This document shows, in pieces, positions 188-15,051 of a stretch of DNA of 32,000 nucleotides. The stretch lies in the NCBI RefSeq assembly GCF_000019345.1, contig NC_010503.1, positions 120,001 through 152,000 of the forward strand. The letters are read 5' to 3'. Both the position numbers and the translations under genes were made by a program. Under the pieces are notes generated by a model, which was given only the letters and a program-made list of their open reading frames with translations, ran no database searches and was not told where the DNA came from. Position 1 is the stretch's first letter; the number at the start of each line of letters is the position of its first letter. The DNA comes from Ureaplasma parvum serovar 3 str. ATCC 27815 (GTDB taxonomy: Bacteria; Bacillota_I; Bacilli_A; Mycoplasmatales; Mycoplasmoidaceae).

Positions 188-3100
188 TTAACCACGGAAT
201 TTTTCAAAATATTCGAGTAATTTTTCAGTAGCATTTTCTTTTATTTTAGACCTATTACTATTCTGATTACTTTTTTTAAAAAAAGAGGTAGGAGGCATTA
301 AATTAACAATATCTACTCCATTTTCATTAAATTCATTATTTTCAAATGCTTTTTTCATAAATTCAAATGTTTTTTTGTTATCTAATTTATTTTCATTAAT
401 TATTTTTATAAGCTCACTTTCTTTTTTATTTTTAATAAACTTACTCCATTCATTAAAAATATCAATTTCATCCTTATTAGGTAGTTTATTAATTTCATTA
501 ACAAATTCAATAATTAAATCTTTCTTTTTTCGCGCTTTTAGACTAGATAAAATATCTCTTTCTAGATCGTGATATTTAACTTCTTTTAGATCTTTTTTGA
601 GCTTTTCATTCATTAACTTAAGAATATAATCAACACCAATATCTTGTTGACTAATTAATTCAATTTTAAAATCAAGATCACTAACAATGCTATCTGTTTC
701 CATACGTTTTTTATCTTGATATTTATCACGCAACCCGATATATATACTTTGATAATCTTGCATTTCTGTACCAATAAGATCATCGTTTTGTTCAAATTCA
801 CTAAATTGTGAAAGCAAATTTTTATATTTTAAAATATCACCAAAAAGTTTAATAAAAATTCTTTCCTCTTCTTTTGTTCCATTAAAAGGAATTTTAAAGT
901 TACTTTTTAATTCTTCTACTAAGTTTCGATAACCTTGTATATATTGATTATCTTCATTATAATATCCTTCATAATATTCTTTAAATGATCTTAAAATAGC
1001 GATCGAAGAATTAATATTGCTCTCTGATGAAAATAATCTTAAAGCTTCATTCACTTCATCTTCTAAATTTATGAAAAAGACAATATTACCATTTGATTTA
1101 ACACCATTAAGAATTCGATTGGTTCGCGACATTGCTTGAATTAAACTATGATATTTTAGTTTTTTGTCCAATCATAATGTATTTAAAGTTGTTGCATCAA
1201 AACCTGTTAAAAACATATTAACAACGATTGCTATATCTAAGCTTCGATCCTTTAATCTCAAGCTAAAGTCTTTATAGTAATTATTAAAATTAGCATTATC
1301 TGTTGAGTATGATGTCCCAAACATTTCATTATAATCTTTAATCGCTTCATCAAGAAAATTACGTGAATCTAAATCAAGTTGATTAGTGTTTTCGTTATTC
1401 TCATCTAATAGTTCAAAATTAGAAAGTTCATTATCATTACTTTCTTGTTCGCTTGGTAAATAACTATAAATTAATCCAATTTTTAATTTTTCTTCTTGAG
1501 GAAATTTTTGTTGTTGTTTTTTAAATTCTGAATAATATATTTTAGCTGCATTAATAGAAGAGCAAGCTAGAATAGAATTAAATCCATTTAGTGTTGTTAA
1601 TACTTTATTTTCGCTTAATTTATTTCTGCTAGTAATAACTTCATTTATATTAGCAATCTTATTATGTTCAAAAAATTCTTCATTTCTTTTGGTTAAACGA
1701 TTATAGTTTTTTAAAATAAAATCAACAATTTCAGAAATACGAATCGGATTTTCCAAAGCTTCTTTTTTATCTATTCCAGTTGATGATGTTTCATCGTCAA
1801 TGTCATCTTTTTCGCTAAGTGTTTTATAATACTCCGTTCTAAAACCTAAAACATTACCATCACGAATAGCTTTATCAATTGTATATTTATGTAAACAAGC
1901 TCCAAAAAGATGCTCTGTTGTAAAGAAAATATTTTTATTTTTGACATTACTATTTTCTTCTAAAATAGGTGTGCCTGTAAACCCAAAAATCATATATTTT
2001 TTAAAAGATTTTTTAGTAATTTTTTTATGTAAATCACCAAATTGAGAACGATGACATTCATCAAAAACAAGAACAACATTTTTAGAATAAATAGGATGTT
2101 TTGGATTTTTACTAATGAATATGCCAAGTTTTTGAATGGTTGTAATAATAATTTTATTCTCTTGATTTCCAATTTGCTTAGCTAGTTCATTAACATTTGT
2201 ATTAGCACTAACACATCCTTTAGAATACTTTTCATATTCTTTTGTTGTTTGATAGTCTAAATCTTTTCGATCAACAACAAATAGAACCTTATCCACACCT
2301 TCAATTTCTTTTGCTAAAGCGGCAGTTTTAAATGATGTAAGAGTTTTTCCGCTTCCTGTTGTGTGTCAAATATAACCACCAGCGCCTGTAGTTCCTAATA
2401 ATTTTTTATCATTTAAAGAAATCTTAATTCGATTAATAATTCTTTCAGTTGCAACAATTTGGTATGGTCTTAAAACCATTAACGTATTATCGCTTGTAAA
2501 AACACAATATTTTGTCAAAATATTTAAAATAGTATGTTTAGCAAAAAAGGTCTGACAAAAATCGATTAAATCAAGAATTTGATTATTTTTTGAATCAGCT
2601 CAGTATGATGTAAATTCAAAAGAATTACTTGTTTTTTTAGAGTTTGTATTATTTCTTTCTTTTATAGAAGTTTCTCTAGTTGTATTTGAATAATATTTAG
2701 TTTGTGTACCATTAGAAATAACATAAATTTGCGTGTAAAGATATAAATCTGTAAACGAATGATTTGCATATCTTTTAATTTGATTAAAAGCTTCTTTAAG
2801 ATTAGTTCCTCGTCTTTTTAGTTCAATATGTACTAATGGAAGTCCATTAATCAAAATAGACACATCATATCGTGTTTTTTGTTGATTATCTAAATTGTTA
2901 TTTTGATATTGATTAATAACTTGAATAGAATTATTATGAATATTATTTTTATCAATTATCTTTATATTTTTGGTGATACTATCTTTATCTTTTTTTAAAG
3001 GGTAGCTATAATCTTCATGAATTTTTTTTGATCTTGCTTCAATTCCATCATTAGGATTTAATAAATAAGTACTTAAAAAAGATTCTCATTCATTATTAGT

Positions 3101-3325
3101 AAATTGATAATTATTAAGTTTTTCGATTTGTTTTCTTAAATTATTTTTTAAATCATTATTATTTTTAATAGGTAAGTATTCATAACCTTGTGCAATTAAT
3201 AATTTAATAAATGTTTCTTCTAATTCAGCTTCACTTTCAAATTTATTCGAATGAACTTTAATTGATTTAAATTCAGCAACAACCGTTGAATTTTCATGTT
3301 CTGCTAATAGTACCTTATTTTCCAT
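188..3325 (-). CDS. hsdR: Type I restriction enzyme R subunit (HsdR), apparently intact, 1045 aa under code 4
   Basis: Track ORFs 188-1171, 1172-2296, 2600-2863 and 3086-3325 share one frame. I translated the gap 2297-2599 and the 1172 junction by hand and they are broken only by TGA. The gap 2864-3085 is in phase but was not translated by hand. Motifs read: LRPYQIVATERI, GGYIWHTTGSGKT (motif I, with W encoded by TGA), VFDECHRSQ (motif II), QAMSRTNR (motif VI). ATG at 3323-3325 is preceded by AAGGAG; TAA at 188-190. Confidence 0.95.
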
Positions 3326-3345: not shown

Positions 3346-3867
3346 TTAATATTTTTTAAAATCTAATAATTTATTTCGATAGTATTCATATTGTTTTTTG
3401 CGTTGTTTGATTTCAAAAGGTAATCCTACGCCAATATCTTTTGTATATGCTTCTAATTTATCTAGGATTTCAACAATTTTATTTTGGATTGAAATGTGAG
3501 GGATAGGAATTAATAATTCAATAATCTCTATCATGTTTGGATGTTTTACAGATGCACCACGATAATTTTCTTCAATAAGCATTTTATTTGCTATCAAAAA
3601 ATAGTAAATAAATTTTAAATTACATTCTTTTTTGTTTTTTTGTGAAAAAATTATATTTAAACTATCTATGAAATAACCATTATAGTATTTTATTATTGGA
3701 GAACCACCAGATGGCAAAGCAATTATTTCGCCATAATTAATATTATTATCATTTTCATTATATTTTATATATCCATCATACAATCCTGTTGAAAGAAGTT
3801 TAACATTACCAAAATTACACTTTTCATATCGTTTTAATTCGTTTGCAGATATATGCTTAAATGACAA
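3346..3867 (-). CDS. hsdS: HsdS module A: one target-recognition domain plus a C-terminal conserved region. It has no ATG start, and its frame is open upstream to 4029.
   Basis: The module ends ...LIPIPHISIQNKIVEILDKLEAYTKDIGVGLPFEIKQRKKQYEYYRNKLLDF, the HsdS conserved-region signature. The frame extended upstream with TGA=Trp reads ...LSRDYIWTLKNIYEKLVQNNVKYKKLWEIVNFDKKFKG, a typical central linker plus TRD start. The M in the ORF track is really a TTG. Confidence 0.85.
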   Translation of the reverse strand: MSFKHISANELKRYEKCNFGNVKLLSTGLYDGYIKYNENDNNINYGEIIALPSGGSPIIKYYNGYFIDSLNIIFSQKNKKECNLKFIYYFLIANKMLIEENYRGASVKHPNMIEIIELLIPIPHISIQNKIVEILDKLEAYTKDIGVGLPFEIKQRKKQYEYYRNKLLDFKKY

Positions 3868-4004
3868 TATTTCATTTTGTTTTTCTTTTGGAACTCCTTT
3901 AAATTTTTTGTCAAAATTAACTATTTCTCAAAGTTTTTTATATTTAACATTGTTTTGAACTAATTTTTCATATATATTCTTTAATGTTCAAATGTAATCC
4001 CTAC

Positions 4005-4316
4005 TTAGCTCTCTCTCTCTCGTGCTATATTATCAAAGTCTAATAATTTATTACGATAATATTCGTATTGTTTTTTACGTTGTTCGATTTCAAGAGGAAG
4101 TCCAGTATTAATATCTTTCGTATATGTTTCCAATTTATCTAAAATCTCAACAATTTTATTTTGGATTGAAATGGGCGGAATAGGGATTATGATTTCTTGC
4201 ATAACATTACTCATTAATTTTGGATTTCCTGATGCTTGATTTACATGTTTTTTAGTAATTTTTCTCAAAATAAAGCTCAAATATTTTGTGTTTAAATTAG
4301 AATTAATGAACTTGAT
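4005..4316 (-). CDS. hsdS: HsdS module B: the C-terminal third of a TRD plus a conserved region, 5'-truncated with no start codon
   Basis: The open frame from 4316 reads KFINSNLNTKYLSFILRKITKKHVNQASGNPKLMSNVMQEIIIPIPPISIQNKIVEILDKLETYTKDINTGLPLEIEQRKKQYEYYRNKLLDFDNIARERES*. The track ORF 4005-4280 starts at a TTG. TAA at 4005-4007. Confidence 0.85.
   Translation of the reverse strand: MKFINSNLNTKYLSFILRKITKKHVNQASGNPKLMSNVMQEIIIPIPPISIQNKIVEILDKLETYTKDINTGLPLEIEQRKKQYEYYRNKLLDFDNIARERES
4009..4021 (-). repeat. (GA)6G dinucleotide tract (CTCTCTCTCTCTC on the plus strand) at the junction of hsdS modules B and A
   Basis: Read directly from the sequence. It encodes the RERE of ...DNIARERES* at the end of module B. 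Confidence 0.95.
4147..4188. repeat. left copy of a 42-bp perfect inverted repeat (partner at 5807-5848) in the hsdS conserved region
   Basis: The reverse complement of 4147-4188 equals 5807-5848 exactly (AATCCCTATTCCGCCCATTTCAATCCAAAATAAAATTGTTGA, encoding IPIPPISIQNKIVE). Module A shares 27 bp of it as a direct repeat at 3470-3496. Confidence 0.95.
4295..4305 (+). repeat. AATTAGAATTA core, copy 1 (breakpoint of the hsdM 3' part on plus and of hsdS module B on minus)
   Basis: Exact 11-mer shared with 6829-6839 in direct orientation and with 6290-6300 in inverted orientation. It has the dyad form AATT-AG-AATT. Confidence 0.8.
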
Positions 4317-4346
4317 CTAGGTAATTATCAAGATAATACAATCGAT

Positions 4347-5393
4347 GTGTTCGGTGATGCTTATGAATACTTAATGAGTATGTATGCTGCAAATGCAGGT
4401 AAATCAGGGGGAGAATTTTTCACCCCTCAAGAAGTTAGTGAACTATTAGTAGAATTAACATTAATTGATTTTAATAATGAAAATAAAGATGTTAGAAGAA
4501 AAATTGGAAAAGTTTATGATCCATGTTGTGGTTCTGGATCATTACTTTTAAAGTATGCAAAATTAAATGAAGGAGTTAAATTTTATGGTCAAGAAATTAA
4601 TCTTACTACGTATAATTTAGCAAGAATTAATATGTTTTTGCACAATATAGGTTATGATAAATTTGATATCAAATTAGGTGATACATTACTAGATCCTAAA
4701 CATAATGATGATAAACCTTTTGATGCAATTGTTTCAAATCCTCCATATTCAACAAAATGGGAGGGAAAATCAAATCCTTTATTAGCTAACGATGAGCGAT
4801 TTCATGTTACTCAATTAGCACCTAAAGGAAAAGCTGATTTTGCTTTTGTATTGCATATACTTCATAATTTATCTTCTAGTGGAACAGCAGCTATAGTTAT
4901 GTTTCCAGGAACTTTATATCGAGATCATGCAGAACAAGATATTAGAAAATATTTAGTTGATAATGTTAATGTTGTAGATAGTGTGATTCAATTACCAGAT
5001 AATCTGTTTTTTGGAACAAGTATTTCAACATGTATTATAGTTTTAAGAAAAAACAAAAACAACAATGATAATGCTAATGGTATCTTGTTTGTTGATGCAT
5101 CAAAAGAATTTGTTAAATCTGGTATCAAAAACAAATTAACCAATGCTAATATTAAAAAAATAGTTGATACGATTCGTTTCAAAAAAGAAGTAACTTATTT
5201 TTCAAAACTTGTATCACGAGAAGAAGTTAAAAATAAAAACTATAATTTATCAGTTAACACATATGTGGAAAAAGAAGACACGTCAGAAAAAATTGATATT
5301 AAATTATTAAATATGCAAATTAAAGAAATTGTGGCTAAAATCGAAAAGTTAAGAAAAGAAATTGATGAAATTGTTTTAGAATTAGAAGAATAA
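4347..5393 (+). CDS. hsdM: Type I R-M methyltransferase HsdM, catalytic 3' part only (N-terminal domain missing). The frame is open from 4296.
   Basis: The frame opens as IRINELDLGNYQDNTIDVFGDAYEYLMSMYAANAGKSGGEFFTPQEV, followed by DPCCGSGSLLL (AdoMet motif I) and the NPPY motif (VSNPPYS). There is no ATG or SD; the track start is a GTG. TAA at 5391-5393, 3 nt before the hsdS ATG. Confidence 0.9.
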   Translation: MFGDAYEYLMSMYAANAGKSGGEFFTPQEVSELLVELTLIDFNNENKDVRRKIGKVYDPCCGSGSLLLKYAKLNEGVKFYGQEINLTTYNLARINMFLHNIGYDKFDIKLGDTLLDPKHNDDKPFDAIVSNPPYSTKWEGKSNPLLANDERFHVTQLAPKGKADFAFVLHILHNLSSSGTAAIVMFPGTLYRDHAEQDIRKYLVDNVNVVDSVIQLPDNLFFGTSISTCIIVLRKNKNNNDNANGILFVDASKEFVKSGIKNKLTNANIKKIVDTIRFKKEVTYFSKLVSREEVKNKNYNLSVNTYVEKEDTSEKIDIKLLNMQIKEIVAKIEKLRKEIDEIVLELEE

Positions 5394-5396
5394 ATT

Positions 5397-6302
5397 ATGA
5401 ATAAAATTGAAAAATTAATTAATGAGTTCTGCCCTAATGGAGTGGAGTTTAAAAAATTAAAAAATATAATTACAGTGGCTCCTAAATCACCTTTTGGAGT
5501 TACAAAACTTTTAAAAATGGAAAAGGGAAATTATTTAACAATAACATCAGGGAAGAAATCATTTTATGTTGACAATTTTTTAGTTGATGGAGAATATATA
5601 TTTGTTAATGATGGCGGTCAAGCAGATATAAAATATAATTTTGGAAAAACAATGTATTCTGATCATATATTCGCATTCAAAGTAAATGAATATAACACAA
5701 AATATCTTTACTTCTATCTATTAAATATTTCTAATTTTATTAATAAAAAATTGTTTATAGGTAGTACATTAAAAAATTTAAATAAAAAAGAATTTTTAAA
5801 TCTTGCAATCCCTATTCCGCCCATTTCAATCCAAAATAAAATTGTTGAAATATTAGACAAGTATACAGAATTAGAAACAGAATTAGAAACAGAATTAGAA
5901 ACAGAATTAGAACTTAGAAATAAGCAGTATATATATTATCGCAATGAATTACTAAACTTTAATAAAAATCAAACATTATTAAAGAAAATAATGGACAGTG
6001 ATGATATAAAATCTATTGATCATAAAATTGAGTTTAAAAAGATTGAATATGTGTGTGAAATAAAAAGAGGTCAAGTATACTCTAAGGAATTTATTAATTC
6101 TAATAAAGGAAATTATCCAGTATATTCATCACAAAGTTTAAATGATGGTGTTTTAGGAAATATTAATAAATATGATTTTGATGGTGAATATGTTACTTGA
6201 ACTACAGATGGTGCATATGCGGGAACTGTTTTCTATAGAAAAGGCAAATTTTCAATAACAAATGTGTGTGGAATATTAAAGGTGTTTGATAATTCTAATT
6301 AA
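5397..6302 (+). CDS. hsdS: HsdS module C: TRD1, central conserved region and the N-terminal part of TRD2. It is 3'-truncated and lacks the C-terminal conserved region.
   Basis: The ATG lies immediately after hsdM. Sequence read: ...AIPIPPISIQNKIVEILDKYTELETELETELETELELRNKQYIYYRNELLNF, then a second TRD start, KIEFKKIEYVCEIKRG. One TGA (6199-6201) is read as W. The module ends ...GILKVFDNSN-TAA (6300-6302) without the IPIPP/YYRN region. Confidence 0.9.
5807..5848. repeat. right copy of the 42-bp perfect inverted repeat (partner at 4147-4188)
   Basis: See the entry for 4147-4188. Confidence 0.95.
5865..5912 (+). repeat. 4 perfect tandem copies of the 12-bp unit ACAGAATTAGAA, encoding (TELE)4 in the hsdS central conserved region
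   Basis: Units at 5865-5876, 5877-5888, 5889-5900 and 5901-5912 are identical. Confidence 0.95.
6290..6300 (-). repeat. AATTAGAATTA core, copy 2 (inverted, TAATTCTAATT on plus) at the truncated 3' end of hsdS module C
   Basis: Exact reverse complement of copies 1 and 3. With flanks it shares 14 bp (TTAATTAGAATTAT) with copy 3. Confidence 0.8.
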
Positions 6303-6340
6303 CAAACTTAAAAATATAAATTTATAAAGGGTTTATAAAT

Positions 6341-6904
6341 ATGGATAATAAAAAAGAAATTGAACGAAACAATTTACATGCAACAATTTGAAAAATTGCT
6401 GATGAGCTCCGTGGCGCAATTGATGGATGAGATTTTAAACAATATGTTTTAGGAATATTATTTTATCGATATATATCAGAAAACTTAACTAAATATATTA
6501 ACGATAATGAGCATAAAATAGGTGATCATGATTTTAACTATGAAACATGTAATGATGATGATGTAGATGAAGAAATGAAAATAACCTTAATTAAAGAAAA
6601 AGGTTTTTATATTAAGCCGTCATTTTTGTTTGCTAATATTGTTAAAAATGCTGAAAAAAATGAAAATTTAAATGAAACTTTGGAAACTGTTTTTAACAAT
6701 ATTGAAGGATCATCCTCTGGTTATGATTCTGAAAAAAATTTAAAAGGGTTATTTAATGATATTGATGTTAATAATAGTCGTTTAGGAAGTACTACACAAG
6801 AAAGAAATAAAAGACTAGCAAGAATTTTAATTAGAATTATATATAAAAATATGGATTTATTAATTTTAAAACCATATATAAATAAAAAAGAGATTCCTAA
6901 TTAA
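6341..6904 (+). CDS. hsdM: HsdM N-terminal domain fragment (5' part of hsdM) ending in 21 unrelated codons
   Basis: ATG at 6341. With two TGA=Trp codons it reads MDNKKEIERNNLHATIWKIADELRGAIDGWDFKQYVLGILFYRYISENL... (HsdM_N signature), then ...SRLGSTTQERNKRLARILIRI, then a non-homologous tail IYKNMDLLILKPYINKKEIPN*. Confidence 0.9.
6829..6839 (+). repeat. AATTAGAATTA core, copy 3 (breakpoint at the end of the hsdM 5' part)
   Basis: Exact 11-mer. It sits in the same codon phase (A|ATT|AGA|ATT|A) as copy 1. Confidence 0.8.
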
Positions 6905-6941: not shown

Positions 6942-7508
6942 TTAATGTTGGTGACTGTGATGATGATGGTGTTCATGTTCGTGACCACCACAGCAATCAT
7001 CTTTAGTTCCACCACAACATTCTTCTTGGGTTTCTGATGTTTTTGTTTCCGAGTCACAGCAAACTTCATGTTCATGTTCGTGACCACCACAACAATCATC
7101 TTTAGCTCCGCCACAGCATTCTTCTTCAACTTTTACTTCTGAATTACAACAAGCTTCATTTTCTTCATCGCTACAGCATTCATCTTCACAACAGCAATCT
7201 TCTTCATAATCATCATCTTCACTAAAATGAATATCTAAGAAAACTTCTGATAAATCTAATACTGTATCATTAGAAATTAAAAAAGCATCAATTTTTGCTT
7301 GTAACTCTTCTTTTTTAAGATCAAATAAAATGTTTGTTGATTCAAAATCAGCATAATTAATATACAACTCTGATCCTAGATCGCTTGTTTTATAAGCTTC
7401 ATCTCCACCAAGTTCTAAATATGAATCAATATCTTCTGGAAGAATATTAATTGTACGTGCGTTGTCTAAATTAATGTAAGAAACACCTGTTTTAATGTAT
7501 TTAGCCAT
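6942..7508 (-). CDS. acidic protein of unknown function with a Cys/His-rich C-terminal tail (putative metal-binding)
   Basis: A 188-aa ORF with an ATG start and AAGGAG 7 nt upstream. The last 86 residues contain 17 Cys (all in CC or CCC runs) and 12 His, including two EECCGG(A/T)[12 protein letters not shown] units and a terminal HHHHHSHQH. Confidence 0.8.
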
Positions 7509-12885: not shown

Positions 12886-15051
12886 ATGTATTTTTTAAAA
12901 AAAATAGTAAATTTATTTAGTTCAAAAATTGAATCAGAAGATAATAATGTTAAAAAAGACGACTTAACTCAACCACGTAAACAATCGCCAGAAGCGCGCA
13001 AACGAAGAAATCGAAGAATTATATTTTGATTAATTATTTTATTAATTATAGGAACAATTATTGGAGTTATTATTTATTTTTCTGTTCGTAAAGAATATGA
13101 TAACGTAATTGTTAAAAGTGCTCAAACAGAAGTTGTTAATAACAAAAAAGTTTTATATTTAAATACTATTAGGCCTAATAGCACTCAAATAACACGTTAT
13201 ACAATTGATGAAGATCAACTACTTACTGCACGTGTTAATATTTTAAATAATACTAATTTTCAAATAATTTCTAATGCATCAAGTTTAGGGCTGTCAAGAA
13301 TCTCATTTAATATTGTGCGTGAAGGTGTTGAAAAGTTTAAACTTGGTGAAACAAATATCTATGCACCAATTTCTGGGAATACTAATAATCAATGAAATTG
13401 GTTAACATCTATTATTACTCAAAATGCAGGAATTCCATCTTCTGGCTTTAATCCACAAGTTATTATTTCTCCATTAATTTCAATTATTTTCTTCATAATT
13501 TTCTTATACATTATTTTACGTGTTTCTAAAGCACAAAGCGACTCTTTATTAGGAACTAATAAGGCGAATGCTAAACTAACAAAATCTGGTGTTCGCTTTA
13601 GTGATGTTGCTGGAATTGCTGAGGTTAAAGAAGAATTAATTGAAATTGTTGATTTCTTAAAAGAACCTAAAAAATATGTTGCTGCTGGTGCTAGAATCCC
13701 AAAAGGTGTAATGTTATATGGACCTCCAGGAACAGGAAAAACATTAATTGCTAAAGCTGTAGCTGGTGAAGCTAATGTTCCATTCTTTCAAACAACGGGT
13801 TCATCTTTTGAAGATACTTTTGTTGGAGTTGGTGCACGTCGTGTGAGAGAATTATTTGAAAAAGCACGTAAGAGTGCTCCCGCCATTATTTTTATTGATG
13901 AAATTGACTCAGTAGCTAAAAAACGTGGTAATTCATTAACTGCTGTACAAGACCAAACAATTAACCAATTATTATCAGAATTAGATGGTTTTGATACTTC
14001 AAGTGGTGTAATTGTTATGGCTGCGACAAATAGATTAGACACATTAGATGACGCAATTTTACGTCCTGGACGTTTTGACCGACAAATTAGTGTTAACTTA
14101 CCAGATATTTTAGAACGTGAACAAATTTTAAGAATTCACTCACGTAATAAAAACTTATCTGCGAAAGTTAGTTTAGAAGATATTGCACGTCGTACTGCTG
14201 GATTTAGTGGTGCACAATTAGAAAATGTTTTAAATGAAGCCGCATTACTATCAGTTAGAGATAAAGCAACATCAATTCATATGAATCATTTAGATGAAGC
14301 GATTGATCGTGTTATTGCAGGACCTTCACGTCCTAATAAAGTTATTTCTGAACGTGAACGTGAACAAGTTTCATACCATGAAGCTGGACATGCATTAATT
14401 GGTTTATATTCACCAGGTGCTGATGTTGTTCAGAAAATTACTATTGTTGCTCGTGGTCGAGCTGCTGGTTATACACTACAAACTCCTGAAAGAAATGAAA
14501 ATATTTTACAAAATAAAACTGAATTAATTAGTCGAGTGCGTACTGCATTAGGTGGTCGAGCTGCAGAAGAGTTAATTTATGGACCTAATGAAATTACAAC
14601 AGGTGCAGCAAATGACTTTTATAAAATTACAAACATCGTAAGAGCAATGGTAGCTTCTTTTGGAATGACAGATGTGGGTTTAACGCAATATATTGCTACT
14701 GAAGGTGTTGATAACCCTTATCGAAATAGTTATTCAGAACAAACAGCATTAGCAATTGATATTGAAATTGAAAAAATTATTCAACGTGAATATAAAATTG
14801 TTAAAGAAATGATTAATGAACATCGTGAAGAATTGGAATTAATCGTTCAAACATTATTAGAATTAGAAACAATTTTAAAGCCACAAATTGATTATATTCA
14901 CCAATACAAACAATTACCACCAGAGGTAATTGCTAATAAAAACAAACGTGAAGCTTCTCAAAAACAAGCAAATAGTAGTGTAGAAGAAGCAAAAGTTGTT
15001 GACGATGAAGAATCAATAAAAGATAAAGAAAAAGATCAAAAATCTAACTAA
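12886..15051 (+). CDS. ftsH: ATP-dependent zinc metalloprotease FtsH
   Basis: ATG at 12886 follows GGGGATGGAGAG. The frame runs continuously into track ORF 13711-15051 through TGA codons. It has two TM segments flanking an extracytoplasmic domain, Walker A GPPGTGKT, Walker B IIFIDEID, the second region of homology (SRH) and the zinc site HEAGHA. Confidence 0.97.

What the first reader, a model, noticed from the sequence alone, without database searches (positions are those of the whole stretch)
3985..4030. (GA)6 dinucleotide tract sets the reading frame between hsdS modules B and A
The coding strand reads AAT ATA GCA CGA GAG AGA GAG AGC TAA (...NIARERES*). Module A's frame is open from 4029 down to 3346 and is offset by one nucleotide. 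Deleting one GA unit, or adding two, gives ...NIARERE-LSRDYIWTLKNIYEKLVQNNVKYKKLWEIVNFDKKFKG..., which fuses conserved region B through a normal-looking central linker to TRD A and its own conserved region. Adding one unit gives ...RERERAK*. Module A has no ATG of its own, so the tract length decides whether TRD A can be expressed. This is the classic slipped-strand phase-variation architecture. It resembles the homopolymer tract that splits hsdS in Neisseria gonorrhoeae NgoAV, where truncated and full-length S subunits have different specificities.
Basis: partly seen in the sequence, partly recalled or inferred. Interest (0 to 1): 0.72.

Follow-up and report, generated by a model that had tools for sequence, protein, structure and literature searches.

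The report
Variable GA repeat switches restriction-enzyme specificity gene
A short GA repeat in the Type I restriction-modification locus of Ureaplasma parvum changes length from strain to strain and decides whether the DNA-recognition subunit is made with two or three recognition domains; this kind of switch is already known in related bacteria, but it has not been described for this human pathogen.

Summary
A (GA)6 tract lies on the minus strand at 4010-4021, between an hsdS conserved region that ends ...NIARERES* and an open, ATG-less half-hsdS (module A, 3346-4029). The window is Ureaplasma parvum (genes UU095-UU100).

In 20 independent U. parvum assemblies the tract has 4, 5, 6, 7, 8, 9 or 10 units. 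Thirteen of them have identical 3.9-kb flanks yet carry six different lengths.

The context needs correcting. Module B is not an N-terminal module. It is the tail of TRD2 plus CR2 of a complete two-TRD hsdS. In this window that gene, and hsdM, are cut and inverted at four TAATTCTAAT recombination sites.

One metagenome scaffold carries the assembled operon: hsdM (528 aa), hsdS (616 aa, three TRDs, n=5) and hsdR. Both proteins match my reconstruction exactly. The tract therefore toggles a 2-TRD and a 3-TRD 'extended' HsdS, as described for Mannheimia and Fusobacterium. Metamycoplasma gateae and [Mycoplasma] anseris have the same (AG)n plus TAAGTAG stop-trap design.

Verdict: a real phase-variable repeat and a new member of a known kind. 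It has no phenotypic effect in this window's scrambled configuration.

The parts
4010..4021 (-). (GA)6 dinucleotide tract, the frame switch
   Evidence: Length is 4-10 units in 20 U. parvum assemblies.
4001..4009 (-). GCTAAGTAG 'stop trap' directly 3' of the tract: TAA (4005-4007) in one off frame, TAG (4001-4003) in the other, and Leu-Ser-Arg in the fused frame
   Evidence: The same [C/T]TAAGTAG follows the (AG)n tract in M. gateae L040, L071 and [M.] anseris L070.
4022..4316 (-). Module B: the last part of TRD2 plus conserved region CR2 of hsdS. It is 5'-truncated here at recombination site J1.
   Evidence: Pfam Methylase_S profile positions 94-168 only. It is joined to the rest of TRD2 in L024, L033, L034 and P0121.
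3346..4000 (-). Module A: linker, third TRD and CR3 (annotated UU096), with no start codon of its own
   Evidence: Pfam Methylase_S. Identical in all assemblies compared.
188..3325 (-). hsdR (UU095), 1045 aa, 20 nt downstream of module A
   Evidence: Exact match to AAF30501.1. Pfam HSDR_N, ResIII and EcoR124_C domains in the locus tables.
4296..5393 (+). C-terminal two thirds of hsdM (N6_Mtase domain; UU098), inverted relative to hsdR and cut off from its 5' part
   Evidence: It rejoins with 6341-6838 to give the 528-aa HsdM found as WP_316711711.1.
5397..6302 (+). 5' part of hsdS: N-terminal region, TRD1, CR1 and the first two thirds of TRD2, ending at site J2
   Evidence: It is contiguous with module B in L024.
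5865..5912 (+). Perfect 12-bp x 4 repeat encoding (TELE)4 in CR1. Copy number differs between strains (2, 3 or 4).
6305..6904 (+). hsdM 5' leader (the presumed promoter region, placed there by inference only) and the N-terminal domain (UU100; ATG at 6341), on a separately invertible segment
   Evidence: Opposite orientation in L024-L028.
4296..4305 (-). Recombination core TAATTCTAAT, site J1 (junction of module B and hsdM-C)
6095..6104 (+). Recombination core TAATTCTAAT, site J2a (inside TRD2)
   Evidence: It is the inversion endpoint in L001.
6290..6299 (+). Recombination core TAATTCTAAT, site J2 (end of the TRD2 fragment / start of the hsdM leader). Its flank GTGTTTGATAATTCTAATTA resembles the XerC-bound mba inverted repeat.
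   Evidence: PMC3599477.
6830..6839 (-). Recombination core TAATTCTAAT, site J3 (inside hsdM, at codons ...ILIRI...)
   Evidence: It is the deletion endpoint, with J1, in L005 and L012.

Best explanation
The (GA)n tract is a hypermutable simple-sequence repeat at the junction between CR2 and a third half-module of an 'extended' Type I specificity gene in Ureaplasma parvum.

Gain or loss of GA units, presumably by slipped-strand mispairing at replication, moves translation among three frames. In two frames (n = 4, 6, 7, 9, 10) the ribosome stops within three codons, at the TAA or TAG of the GCTAAGTAG trap. The product is then a canonical two-TRD HsdS of 397-401 aa (TRD1-CR1-TRD2-CR2). In the third frame (n = 5, 8) translation runs through a linker into TRD A-CR3 and gives a 616-618 aa three-TRD HsdS.

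By analogy with the Mannheimia haemolytica extended HsdS, the two forms should direct HsdM (and HsdR) to different bipartite target sequences, which would switch the methylome and the restriction specificity.

The switch matters only when the operon is assembled. In this window hsdM and hsdS are cut and inverted at four TAATTCTAAT sites, so the locus is off whatever the tract length (here n = 6, also off for module A).

Shown: the tract polymorphism, the three reading outcomes, the existence of the assembled operon with the in-frame 616-aa gene, and conservation of the design in other Mollicutes. Inferred: the slippage mechanism, expression, and the specificity change.
For: - Tract lengths of 4, 5, 6, 7, 8, 9 and 10 occur in 20 independent assemblies.
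- Thirteen assemblies with 100% identical 3,937-nt flanks carry six different lengths.
- All three frames occur. In a sample drawn through HsdR, which is unbiased with respect to the tract, 6 of 10 loci are in frame.
- Fused ORFs are on record: P0001/P0121 and P0002 (serovar 14 ATCC 33697), and the same 308-aa ORF in L015, GCA_000828735.1/AP014584.1, which carries serovar 3 proteins BAO733xx.
- The assembled operon in L024 (ENA ERZ28586575) encodes a 528-aa HsdM and a 616-aa HsdS, both identical to my reconstructions from the window's junctions.
- The 616-aa protein has three Methylase_S stretches.
- Many 600-aa (three-TRD) and 800-aa (four-TRD) HsdS homologues cover 100% of it.
- The same design, (AG)n followed by [C/T]TAAGTAG between CR2 and a third TRD in an hsdM-hsdS-hsdR operon, occurs elsewhere. 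It is in frame in M. gateae (600 aa) and out of frame in a syntenic relative (410 + 201 aa, where +1 unit restores 600 aa). It occurs twice in [M.] anseris (844 aa).
- Literature (PMC7383803): AG[n] hsdS genes are common in Mycoplasmataceae. Extended three-TRD hsdS genes with the SSR between TRD2a and TRD2b switch specificity, CAACN4GT versus CAACN5TC.
Against: - No read-level data were available, so switching within a clone is not shown. It is inferred from between-assembly variation.
- No methylome or expression data exist for U. parvum.
- Most assemblies have the scrambled, hsdM-split arrangement. Counts of contigs carrying each protein: P0139 36 and P0143 32 for the split N-terminal part, against 4-9 for intact HsdM. 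Two strains have deleted hsdM/hsdS entirely (L005, L012) and one has a broken hsdR (L013). The locus is therefore often non-functional and the tract could drift neutrally there.
- The assembled arrangement with an out-of-frame tract (the 397-aa product) was not found in the collection.
- How a three-TRD HsdS is used is unknown. The AlphaFold model of a homologue gave no usable answer.
Confidence: 0.75

Rival explanations
1. The tract is a neutral microsatellite in a decaying locus. The Type I system of U. parvum is a remnant, the GA tract varies only because dinucleotide repeats slip, and its length has no selected function.
For: Published genome papers call UU095-UU100 split, truncated or remnant genes (PMC2751442; PMC3511179). 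Most assemblies have hsdM split. Deletions of hsdM/hsdS occur in L005 and L012, and an hsdR frameshift in L013. The pooled length distribution shows no clear excess of any frame (7 of 20 in frame).
Against: The split is reversible in the record. An exactly reassembled operon exists in at least five samples. Module A is intact and identical in every assembly, although divergence is too low for this to carry much weight. The same tract and stop-trap design is kept in intact hsdM-hsdS-hsdR operons of M. gateae and [M.] anseris. Three-TRD HsdS proteins are widespread. In all four contigs where TRD2 is assembled, the tract is in frame.
Confidence: 0.13
2. Module A is a silent cassette that is brought into use by recombination, not by frameshifting. 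It could be moved by exchange between the similar conserved regions (CR2/CR3, 82% identical over 167 nt) or between the N-terminal region and the linker. On this view the GA tract is incidental.
For: A related lineage has TRD A in position 1 of a normal two-TRD hsdS, with no GA tract and no third module (P0003, L039). A 215-aa half-HsdS joins the hsdS N-terminus directly to TRD A (P0138). Direct repeat D1 and inverted repeats I1-I3 link the conserved regions. Tandem truncated hsdS copies in M. faucium are interpreted this way (PMC11062135).
Against: It does not explain the hypervariable tract, the stop codons placed in both off frames, or the conservation of that design across genera. Fused three-TRD ORFs exist as such. 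Recombination and frameshifting can coexist, so this is more an additional layer than an alternative.
Confidence: 0.08
3. The length differences are sequencing or assembly errors at a low-complexity site.
For: Most of the loci are short-read assemblies, and consensus calling at repeats can err.
Against: The tract is only 8-20 nt, well within read length. The differences come in whole GA units only. They appear in finished or isolate genomes from different assembly projects (the window's serovar 3 sequence with n=6, AP014584.1 with n=8, ATCC 33697 with n=8, three 2024 GenBank assemblies with n=4, 7 and 9). The same length recurs in unrelated samples.
Confidence: 0.03

Closest known systems
Phase-variable 'extended' three-TRD hsdS genes of Mannheimia haemolytica (G[n]) and Fusobacterium nucleatum (AAGAC[n]) (Atack et al. 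2019, PMC7383803)
   Same: The SSR lies between TRD2a/CR2 and a third TRD (2b). Off frames give a complete two-TRD HsdS and the on frame gives a three-TRD HsdS. The tract length differs between strains.
   Different: The repeat unit here is GA. A conserved dual-frame stop trap follows the tract. The gene is additionally broken and rejoined by site-specific inversions that also split hsdM. No methylome data exist for Ureaplasma.
AG[n]-containing hsdS genes of Mycoplasmataceae (M. bovirhinis, M. dispar and others; PMC7383803), and here M. gateae and [M.] anseris
   Same: The same repeat unit and the same position, directly after a conserved region and before the next TRD. The same following motif (TAAGTAG). 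The same hsdM-hsdS-hsdR operon order.
   Different: Ureaplasma is not mentioned in that survey's main text. Those loci were not reported to combine the repeat with inversion sites inside hsdM and hsdS.
   Same: An SSR between hsdS modules changes which HsdS form is made, rather than simply switching the system on or off.
   Different: NgoAV toggles a one-TRD truncated subunit against a two-TRD full-length subunit. Here the upstream part already has two TRDs and the tract adds a third.
Inverting hsd loci of Mycoplasma pulmonis (HvsR) and Streptococcus pneumoniae SpnD39III/cod (PsrA/CreX)
   Same: Site-specific recombination at short repeats inside hsdS reshuffles TRD-coding segments. In M. pulmonis one recombinase serves both surface-antigen and hsd loci. 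The similarity of site J2 to the mba site suggests the same may hold here.
   Different: Here the sites also lie inside hsdM and upstream of its 5' leader, so inversion switches hsdM itself off. No recombinase gene is adjacent. The GA tract is a separate, additional layer.
EcoR124I / EcoR124II TAEL repeat in the central conserved region
   Same: A 12-bp (4-aa) repeat in CR1 varies in copy number (TELE x2, x3, x4 among U. parvum assemblies). In EcoR124 this changes the spacer length of the target (cited in PMC7383803).
   Different: This is a neighbouring feature, not the GA tract. Its effect in Ureaplasma is untested.

Membership tests
SSR-mediated phase-variable hsdS (criteria of Atack et al. 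2019) | A repeat whose unit is not a multiple of 3, with at least 5 dinucleotide units, within the hsdS coding region | tested here: met
   (GA)6 at 4010-4021 inside the hsdS reading frames
SSR-mediated phase-variable hsdS (criteria of Atack et al. 2019) | Tract length differs among strains carrying the same gene | tested here: met
   4-10 units in 20 assemblies; six lengths among 13 assemblies with identical flanks
SSR-mediated phase-variable hsdS (criteria of Atack et al. 2019) | Tract located between TRD-coding modules, so that length changes alter which HsdS form is encoded | tested here: met
   The tract lies between CR2 and the linker/TRD A. n = 5 or 8 gives 616/618 aa; other lengths give 397-401 aa.
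SSR-mediated phase-variable hsdS (criteria of Atack et al. 2019) | Reversible switching within a clonal population, with a change of methylation | not testable with these tools
   No read sets or methylomes were available
Extended three-TRD hsdS | Three TRDs (three Methylase_S domains) in one ORF when the tract is in frame | tested here: met
   Three Methylase_S stretches in the 616-aa protein. This protein is encoded as one gene in L024.
Extended three-TRD hsdS | Off frames leave a complete two-TRD HsdS | tested here: inconclusive
   The reconstruction gives 397-401 aa with TRD1-CR1-TRD2-CR2. However, no assembly with an assembled hsdS and an out-of-frame tract was found (the 397-aa sequence is absent from the collection). 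The homologous off state is seen in L071 (410 aa).
Extended three-TRD hsdS | Two-TRD and three-TRD forms have different target specificities | not testable with these tools
   Known only for M. haemolytica (PMC7383803)
NgoAV-type hsdS switch (truncated versus full length) | SSR between TRD1 and TRD2, so that the off state yields a single-TRD half subunit | tested here: not met
   The sequence upstream of the tract, once assembled, carries TRD1 and TRD2
Type I restriction-modification system | hsdM, hsdS and hsdR genes in one locus | tested here: met
   Pfam HsdM_N + N6_Mtase and Methylase_S. HSDR_N/ResIII/EcoR124_C in the locus tables. In this window hsdM and hsdS are present only as rearranged pieces.
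Invertase-driven hsdS 'epigenetic inverton' (M. pulmonis / S. pneumoniae type) | Inverted repeats within hsdS genes at which segments invert | tested here: met
   Four TAATTCTAAT cores (5 in the window against 0.69 expected). Alternative orientations occur in L001 and L024-L028, and a deletion in L005/L012.
Invertase-driven hsdS 'epigenetic inverton' (M. pulmonis / S. pneumoniae type) | A site-specific recombinase gene adjacent to the locus | tested here: not met
   No integrase or invertase domain among the called genes within 10 kb on either side
XerC (UU222)-dependent inversion sites of U. parvum (mba, UU172) | Site resembles the XerC-bound repeat ...TGTTTGATAATTCAAAT... | tested here: inconclusive
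   J2 matches 16 of 18 bases with 13 contiguous (against PMC3599477). The other three sites share only the 10-bp core. Binding and catalysis cannot be tested here.

The most novel reading that the evidence does not exclude
The U. parvum hsd locus, written off in genome papers as split remnants, may be a working three-layer stochastic switch. Layer 1: inversions at TAATTCTAAT sites, possibly by the same XerC that flips the mba surface-antigen locus, break or rebuild hsdM and hsdS, which gives system on/off. A site inside hsdM itself would be a new way to switch a Type I system. [quoted passage not shown] Layer 3: the (TELE)2-4 repeat sets the spacer length. Together these would give a neonatal pathogen with a minimal genome a multi-state phasevarion.
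Probability: 0.35. Interest if true: 0.68.

Novelty: new member of a known kind. Interest (0 to 1): 0.47.

Why it matters
Ureaplasma parvum is a common cause of chorioamnionitis and preterm-infant lung disease, and it has few known regulators. A Type I system whose specificity subunit switches form at high frequency would change genome-wide methylation (a phasevarion) and the barrier to foreign DNA. That could affect gene expression, strain typing and transformability.

Practically, the result shows that UU095-UU100 should not be annotated as pseudogene debris. It also identifies public samples that carry the assembled, in-frame operon, so the methylation motifs could be measured directly.

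The GA switch itself follows a design already catalogued in Mollicutes and other bacteria, so it extends that class rather than founding a new one.

Tried and rejected
I worked around this with TGA-free ORFs and with ids from protein searches.
- The first tract-length sample, drawn through the 173-aa module A ORF, showed no in-frame lengths. I rejected that as evidence because the look-up excludes fused genes by construction. The HsdR-based sample corrected it.
- The genome-contig search with the fused protein returned only seven distant loci and no Ureaplasma.
- The metagenome scan with the exact flanks found nothing.
- The metagenome scan for GAGAGAGAGCTAAGTAG found 29 matches, none near an hsdS-like sequence, so they are chance hits.
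- The model of the M. gateae three-TRD homologue (pLDDT 74, pTM 0.53) matches HsdS structures only domain by domain (rmsd about 26 A). It says nothing about which TRDs pair.
- The promoter/terminator scan gave no enrichment over shuffles in this AT-rich DNA.
- Supplementary tables of PMC7383803 are not held, so I could not check whether REBASE entries for Ureaplasma were in that survey.
- The NgoAV-type reading was rejected because the upstream part has two TRDs.

Full report
**What is in the sequence**

The window is AT-rich (28% GC) and its long genes are open only if TGA is read as Trp. It carries a bacterial rRNA operon. Its proteins are identical to Ureaplasma parvum serovar 3 entries AAF30501, AAF30502, AAF30504 and AAF30506, that is UU095, UU096, UU098 and UU100.

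On the minus strand the sequence reads ...GAT AAT ATA GCA CGA GAG AGA GAG AGC TAA GTA GGG..., with an exact (GA)6 at 4010-4021. This is the only GA/CT run of four or more units in the window. Shuffled sequence gives 0.02 such runs.

The frame entering the tract encodes the end of an hsdS conserved region (...QRKKQYEYYRNKLLDFDNIARERES*). A frame offset by one base is open from 4029 to 3349. It encodes a linker, a target-recognition domain (TRD) and a further conserved region (module A, Pfam Methylase_S). Module A has no ATG before codon 150. hsdR starts 20 nt after its stop.

**The tract is hypervariable**

I used exact-protein look-ups with the TGA-free hsdM fragment, the annotated 173-aa module A ORF, the fused ORF P0002, the intact HsdM and HsdR. 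These recovered the locus from 20 independent U. parvum assemblies: GenBank isolates, ENA metagenome assemblies and Logan assemblies.

| GA units | 4 | 5 | 6 | 7 | 8 | 9 | 10 |
|---|---|---|---|---|---|---|---|
| Assemblies | 1 | 1 | 2 | 4 | 6 | 5 | 1 |

Thirteen assemblies are identical over 3,937 flanking bases yet carry six different lengths. The tract therefore changes far faster than point substitution.

My first sample, drawn through the module A ORF, contained no in-frame length. That look-up cannot find fused genes, so I discarded the inference. The sample drawn through HsdR has 6 of 10 loci in frame.

Lengths 5 and 8 give exactly the predicted fusion ...NIARERE(RE)LSRDYIWTLKNIYEKL.... 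It is annotated as a restriction endonuclease subunit S in serovar 14 ATCC 33697, and the same 308-aa ORF occurs in GCA_000828735.1/AP014584.1, which carries serovar 3 proteins (P0001, P0002, P0121, P0122).

**Module B is not what it seemed**

Module B begins abruptly inside a TRD. The neighbouring DNA holds the following pieces, all on the plus strand:

- the C-terminal two thirds of hsdM (4296-5393);
- an hsdS that starts normally but stops inside its second TRD (5397-6302);
- the hsdM 5' leader and N-terminal domain (6305-6904).

The four break points each carry the 10-bp core TAATTCTAAT, at 4296-4305 and 6830-6839 on the minus strand and 6095-6104 and 6290-6299 on the plus strand. There are five copies in the window against 0.69 expected.

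Joining the pieces across the cores predicts a 528-aa HsdM and a two-TRD HsdS whose TRD2 tail and CR2 are module B. The predicted HsdM is in the public collection, letter for letter, as WP_316711711.1. One ENA scaffold (L024) carries the fully assembled operon: hsdM 528 aa, hsdS 616 aa, hsdR 1045 aa. Its hsdS is identical to my reconstruction with n = 5.

Other states seen:

- The scrambled order of this window also occurs in GCA_000828735.1 (L015), ATCC 33697 and three metagenomes.
- A further inversion between J1 and J2a occurs in GCA_037405195.1.
- A J1 x J3 deletion of hsdM and hsdS occurs in two samples.
- ATCC 33697 has both a main contig in the scrambled state and a 1,295-bp contig with TRD2 assembled.
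- Three contigs end exactly at the core.

Both of the last two observations point to mixed states within cultures. Paralanov et al. noted only a rearranged hsdS pair in serovar 1 and left the mechanism open (PMC3511179).

**How the tract most likely works**

In the assembled operon the tract sits after CR2 of a complete two-TRD hsdS and before a third TRD.

- With n = 4, 6, 7, 9 or 10 the ribosome meets TAA or TAG within three codons, because the sequence after the tract, GCTAAGTAG, has a stop in both off frames. The product is a 397-401 aa two-TRD HsdS.
- With n = 5 or 8 the same nine bases read Leu-Ser-Arg, and translation continues into TRD A and CR3. The product is a 616-618 aa protein with three Methylase_S domains.

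This is the 'extended hsdS' arrangement that Atack et al. described for Mannheimia haemolytica and Fusobacterium nucleatum. There the two-TRD and three-TRD forms methylate CAACN4GT and CAACN5TC respectively (PMC7383803). I infer, but cannot show, that the U. parvum forms likewise differ in target sequence.

In this window's configuration the tract has no effect. hsdM is split, module B lacks its 5' part, and n = 6 is an off length in any case.

**Evidence that the design is evolved rather than accidental**

A search with the 616-aa protein found many 600-aa and some 800-aa HsdS homologues covering its whole length.

- Metamycoplasma gateae has hsdM, a 600-aa three-TRD hsdS and hsdR. Its CR2-TRD3 junction reads ...TTTGATGATAATCT(AG)11CTAAGTAG..., encoding ...DDNLERERERELSSSF....
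- A syntenic relative (L071) has (AG)10 followed by TTAAGTAG and is out of frame (410 aa plus a separate 201-aa ORF). Adding one unit restores a 600-aa gene.
- [Mycoplasma] anseris has two such tracts in an 844-aa four-TRD gene.
- Mesomycoplasma dispar has dinucleotide-coded junctions (THTHTERERERE, SLSLSL).
- Some M. hominis homologues end ...FKDLAGGGIK* where others continue ...FKDLAGGGVLSKNY..., which suggests a G-run at the same spot. I did not check the DNA.

The survey cited above had already reported at least 14 AG[n]-bearing hsdS genes in Mycoplasmataceae. Ureaplasma does not appear in its main text, and its supplementary files are not held.

**Rivals**

- *Neutral slippage in a decaying locus.* This is supported by the predominance of the split arrangement, the deletions and the broken hsdR in some strains. 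It is opposed by the exact reassembly seen in at least five samples, by the cross-genus conservation of the tract plus stop trap, and by the tract being in frame in all four contigs where TRD2 is assembled (L024, L033, L034, P0121). One of those four was found with a fused query, so the unbiased count is 3 of 3.
- *A silent-cassette role for module A.* This is plausible as an additional layer. A related lineage has TRD A in position 1 of an ordinary two-TRD hsdS, with no tract and no third module (L039). A 215-aa half subunit also exists (P0138). This rival does not explain the tract itself.
- *Assembly error.* This is unlikely for an 8-20 nt tract that differs by whole units across isolate genomes and unrelated samples.

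**Comparison and verdict**

The finding is a real phase-variable simple-sequence repeat in hsdS. It works like the extended three-TRD hsdS switches and shares its repeat unit and stop trap with other Mollicutes. It is not an NgoAV-type truncated versus full-length switch.

It is a new member of a known kind, not previously described for Ureaplasma in the literature I could search.

The more unusual feature lies beside it: site-specific inversion that cuts hsdM itself. One site (J2, GTGTTTGATAATTCTAATTA) closely resembles the XerC-bound repeat of the mba locus (TCTGTTTGATAATTCAAATTA; PMC3599477). Two systematic surveys of Type I invertons do not mention Ureaplasma, and one of them uses hsdM as the fixed, non-invertible anchor for its inversion PCR (PMC7672463; PMC9881135).

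**What led nowhere**

- Metagenome DNA scans gave nothing, or chance hits only.
- The species-representative genome scan missed Ureaplasma.
- The promoter scan was uninformative.
- The AlphaFold model of the M. gateae homologue confirmed HsdS-like domains but not their arrangement.

Noticed in passing
window 4296-6839 (cores at 4296-4305, 6095-6104, 6290-6299, 6830-6839): hsdM and hsdS are cut and inverted at four TAATTCTAAT sites. Two inversions rebuild an intact hsdM-hsdS-hsdR operon, which exists in L024-L028. An inversion site inside hsdM itself was not found described in the papers searched.
   Followed up: yes
window 5865-5912: A perfect 12-bp x 4 repeat encodes (TELE)4 in CR1 of hsdS. 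Other U. parvum assemblies have 3 units (ATCC 33697, L029) or 2 units (L001, L039). With 4 units CR1 has the same length (46 aa) as CR2 and CR3. By analogy with EcoR124I/II this could change the target spacer.
   Followed up: partly
window 6279-6312 (site J2): The flank GTGTTTGATAATTCTAATTA matches the XerC (UU222)-bound inverted repeat of the mba locus (TCTGTTTGATAATTCAAATTA) at 16 of 18 positions. This suggests that one recombinase may flip both the surface-antigen and the hsd loci, as HvsR does in M. pulmonis.
   Followed up: partly
L005 9554-9567; L012 171-184: Two samples (GCA_037407185.1, SRR24889776) have lost all of hsdM and the 5' part of hsdS through recombination between the two same-orientation sites J1 and J3. 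Module B, the tract (n=9), module A and hsdR remain.
   Followed up: yes
L006 1-10; L010 1-10; L035 1-10: Three contigs begin exactly at the TAATTCTAAT core. A 10-bp repeat cannot by itself break an assembly, so this suggests that alternative left flanks, meaning mixed inversion states, were present in those samples.
   Followed up: partly
L024 12484-12790; L033 and L034 1-350; protein P0121: In every contig where TRD2 is assembled onto module B, the tract is in frame (n = 5, 8, 8, 8). The numbers are small and one case was found with a biased query, but this hints that the three-TRD form goes with the on arrangement.
   Followed up: partly
L039 1129-4133 (Logan SRR31758153): A related Ureaplasma lineage has a plain two-TRD hsdS (432 aa) with TRD A in position 1, TELE x2, no GA tract and no third module. 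Only the hsdM 5'-leader-plus-N-terminal segment is inverted there (two sites). The hsdM inversion switch is therefore shared by lineages with different hsdS alleles.
   Followed up: partly
proteins P0008, P0045, P0057 (Metamycoplasma hominis): At the position of the GA tract, M. hominis homologues read ...FKDLAGGGIK* or ...FKDLAGG(G)VLSKNYLLLL.... This suggests a poly-G tract doing the same job. The DNA was not examined.
   Followed up: no
window 6836-6863 (minus strand): A promoter-like TTAATA-16 nt-TATAAT has its -10 box overlapping the J3 core. In the assembled state it would read into the hsdM leader. It is a consensus match only, and such matches are not enriched in this region.
   Followed up: no
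window 6942-7508 (minus strand), repeats 6946-7206: A 188-aa ORF next to the hsd locus ends in a Cys/Gly/His-rich tail (...[25 protein letters not shown]) encoded by imperfect 24-99 bp repeats. It has no Pfam hit in the locus tables.
   Followed up: no
L013 870-4008 (Logan ERR1363945): hsdR is split into 437-aa and 601-aa ORFs in this sample. This suggests inactivation of the restriction subunit in some strains.
   Followed up: no
window 14856-14865: A fifth copy of TAATTCTAAT lies far from the hsd locus, inside another gene. It is probably a chance occurrence, and no rearrangement was seen there in L001.
   Followed up: no
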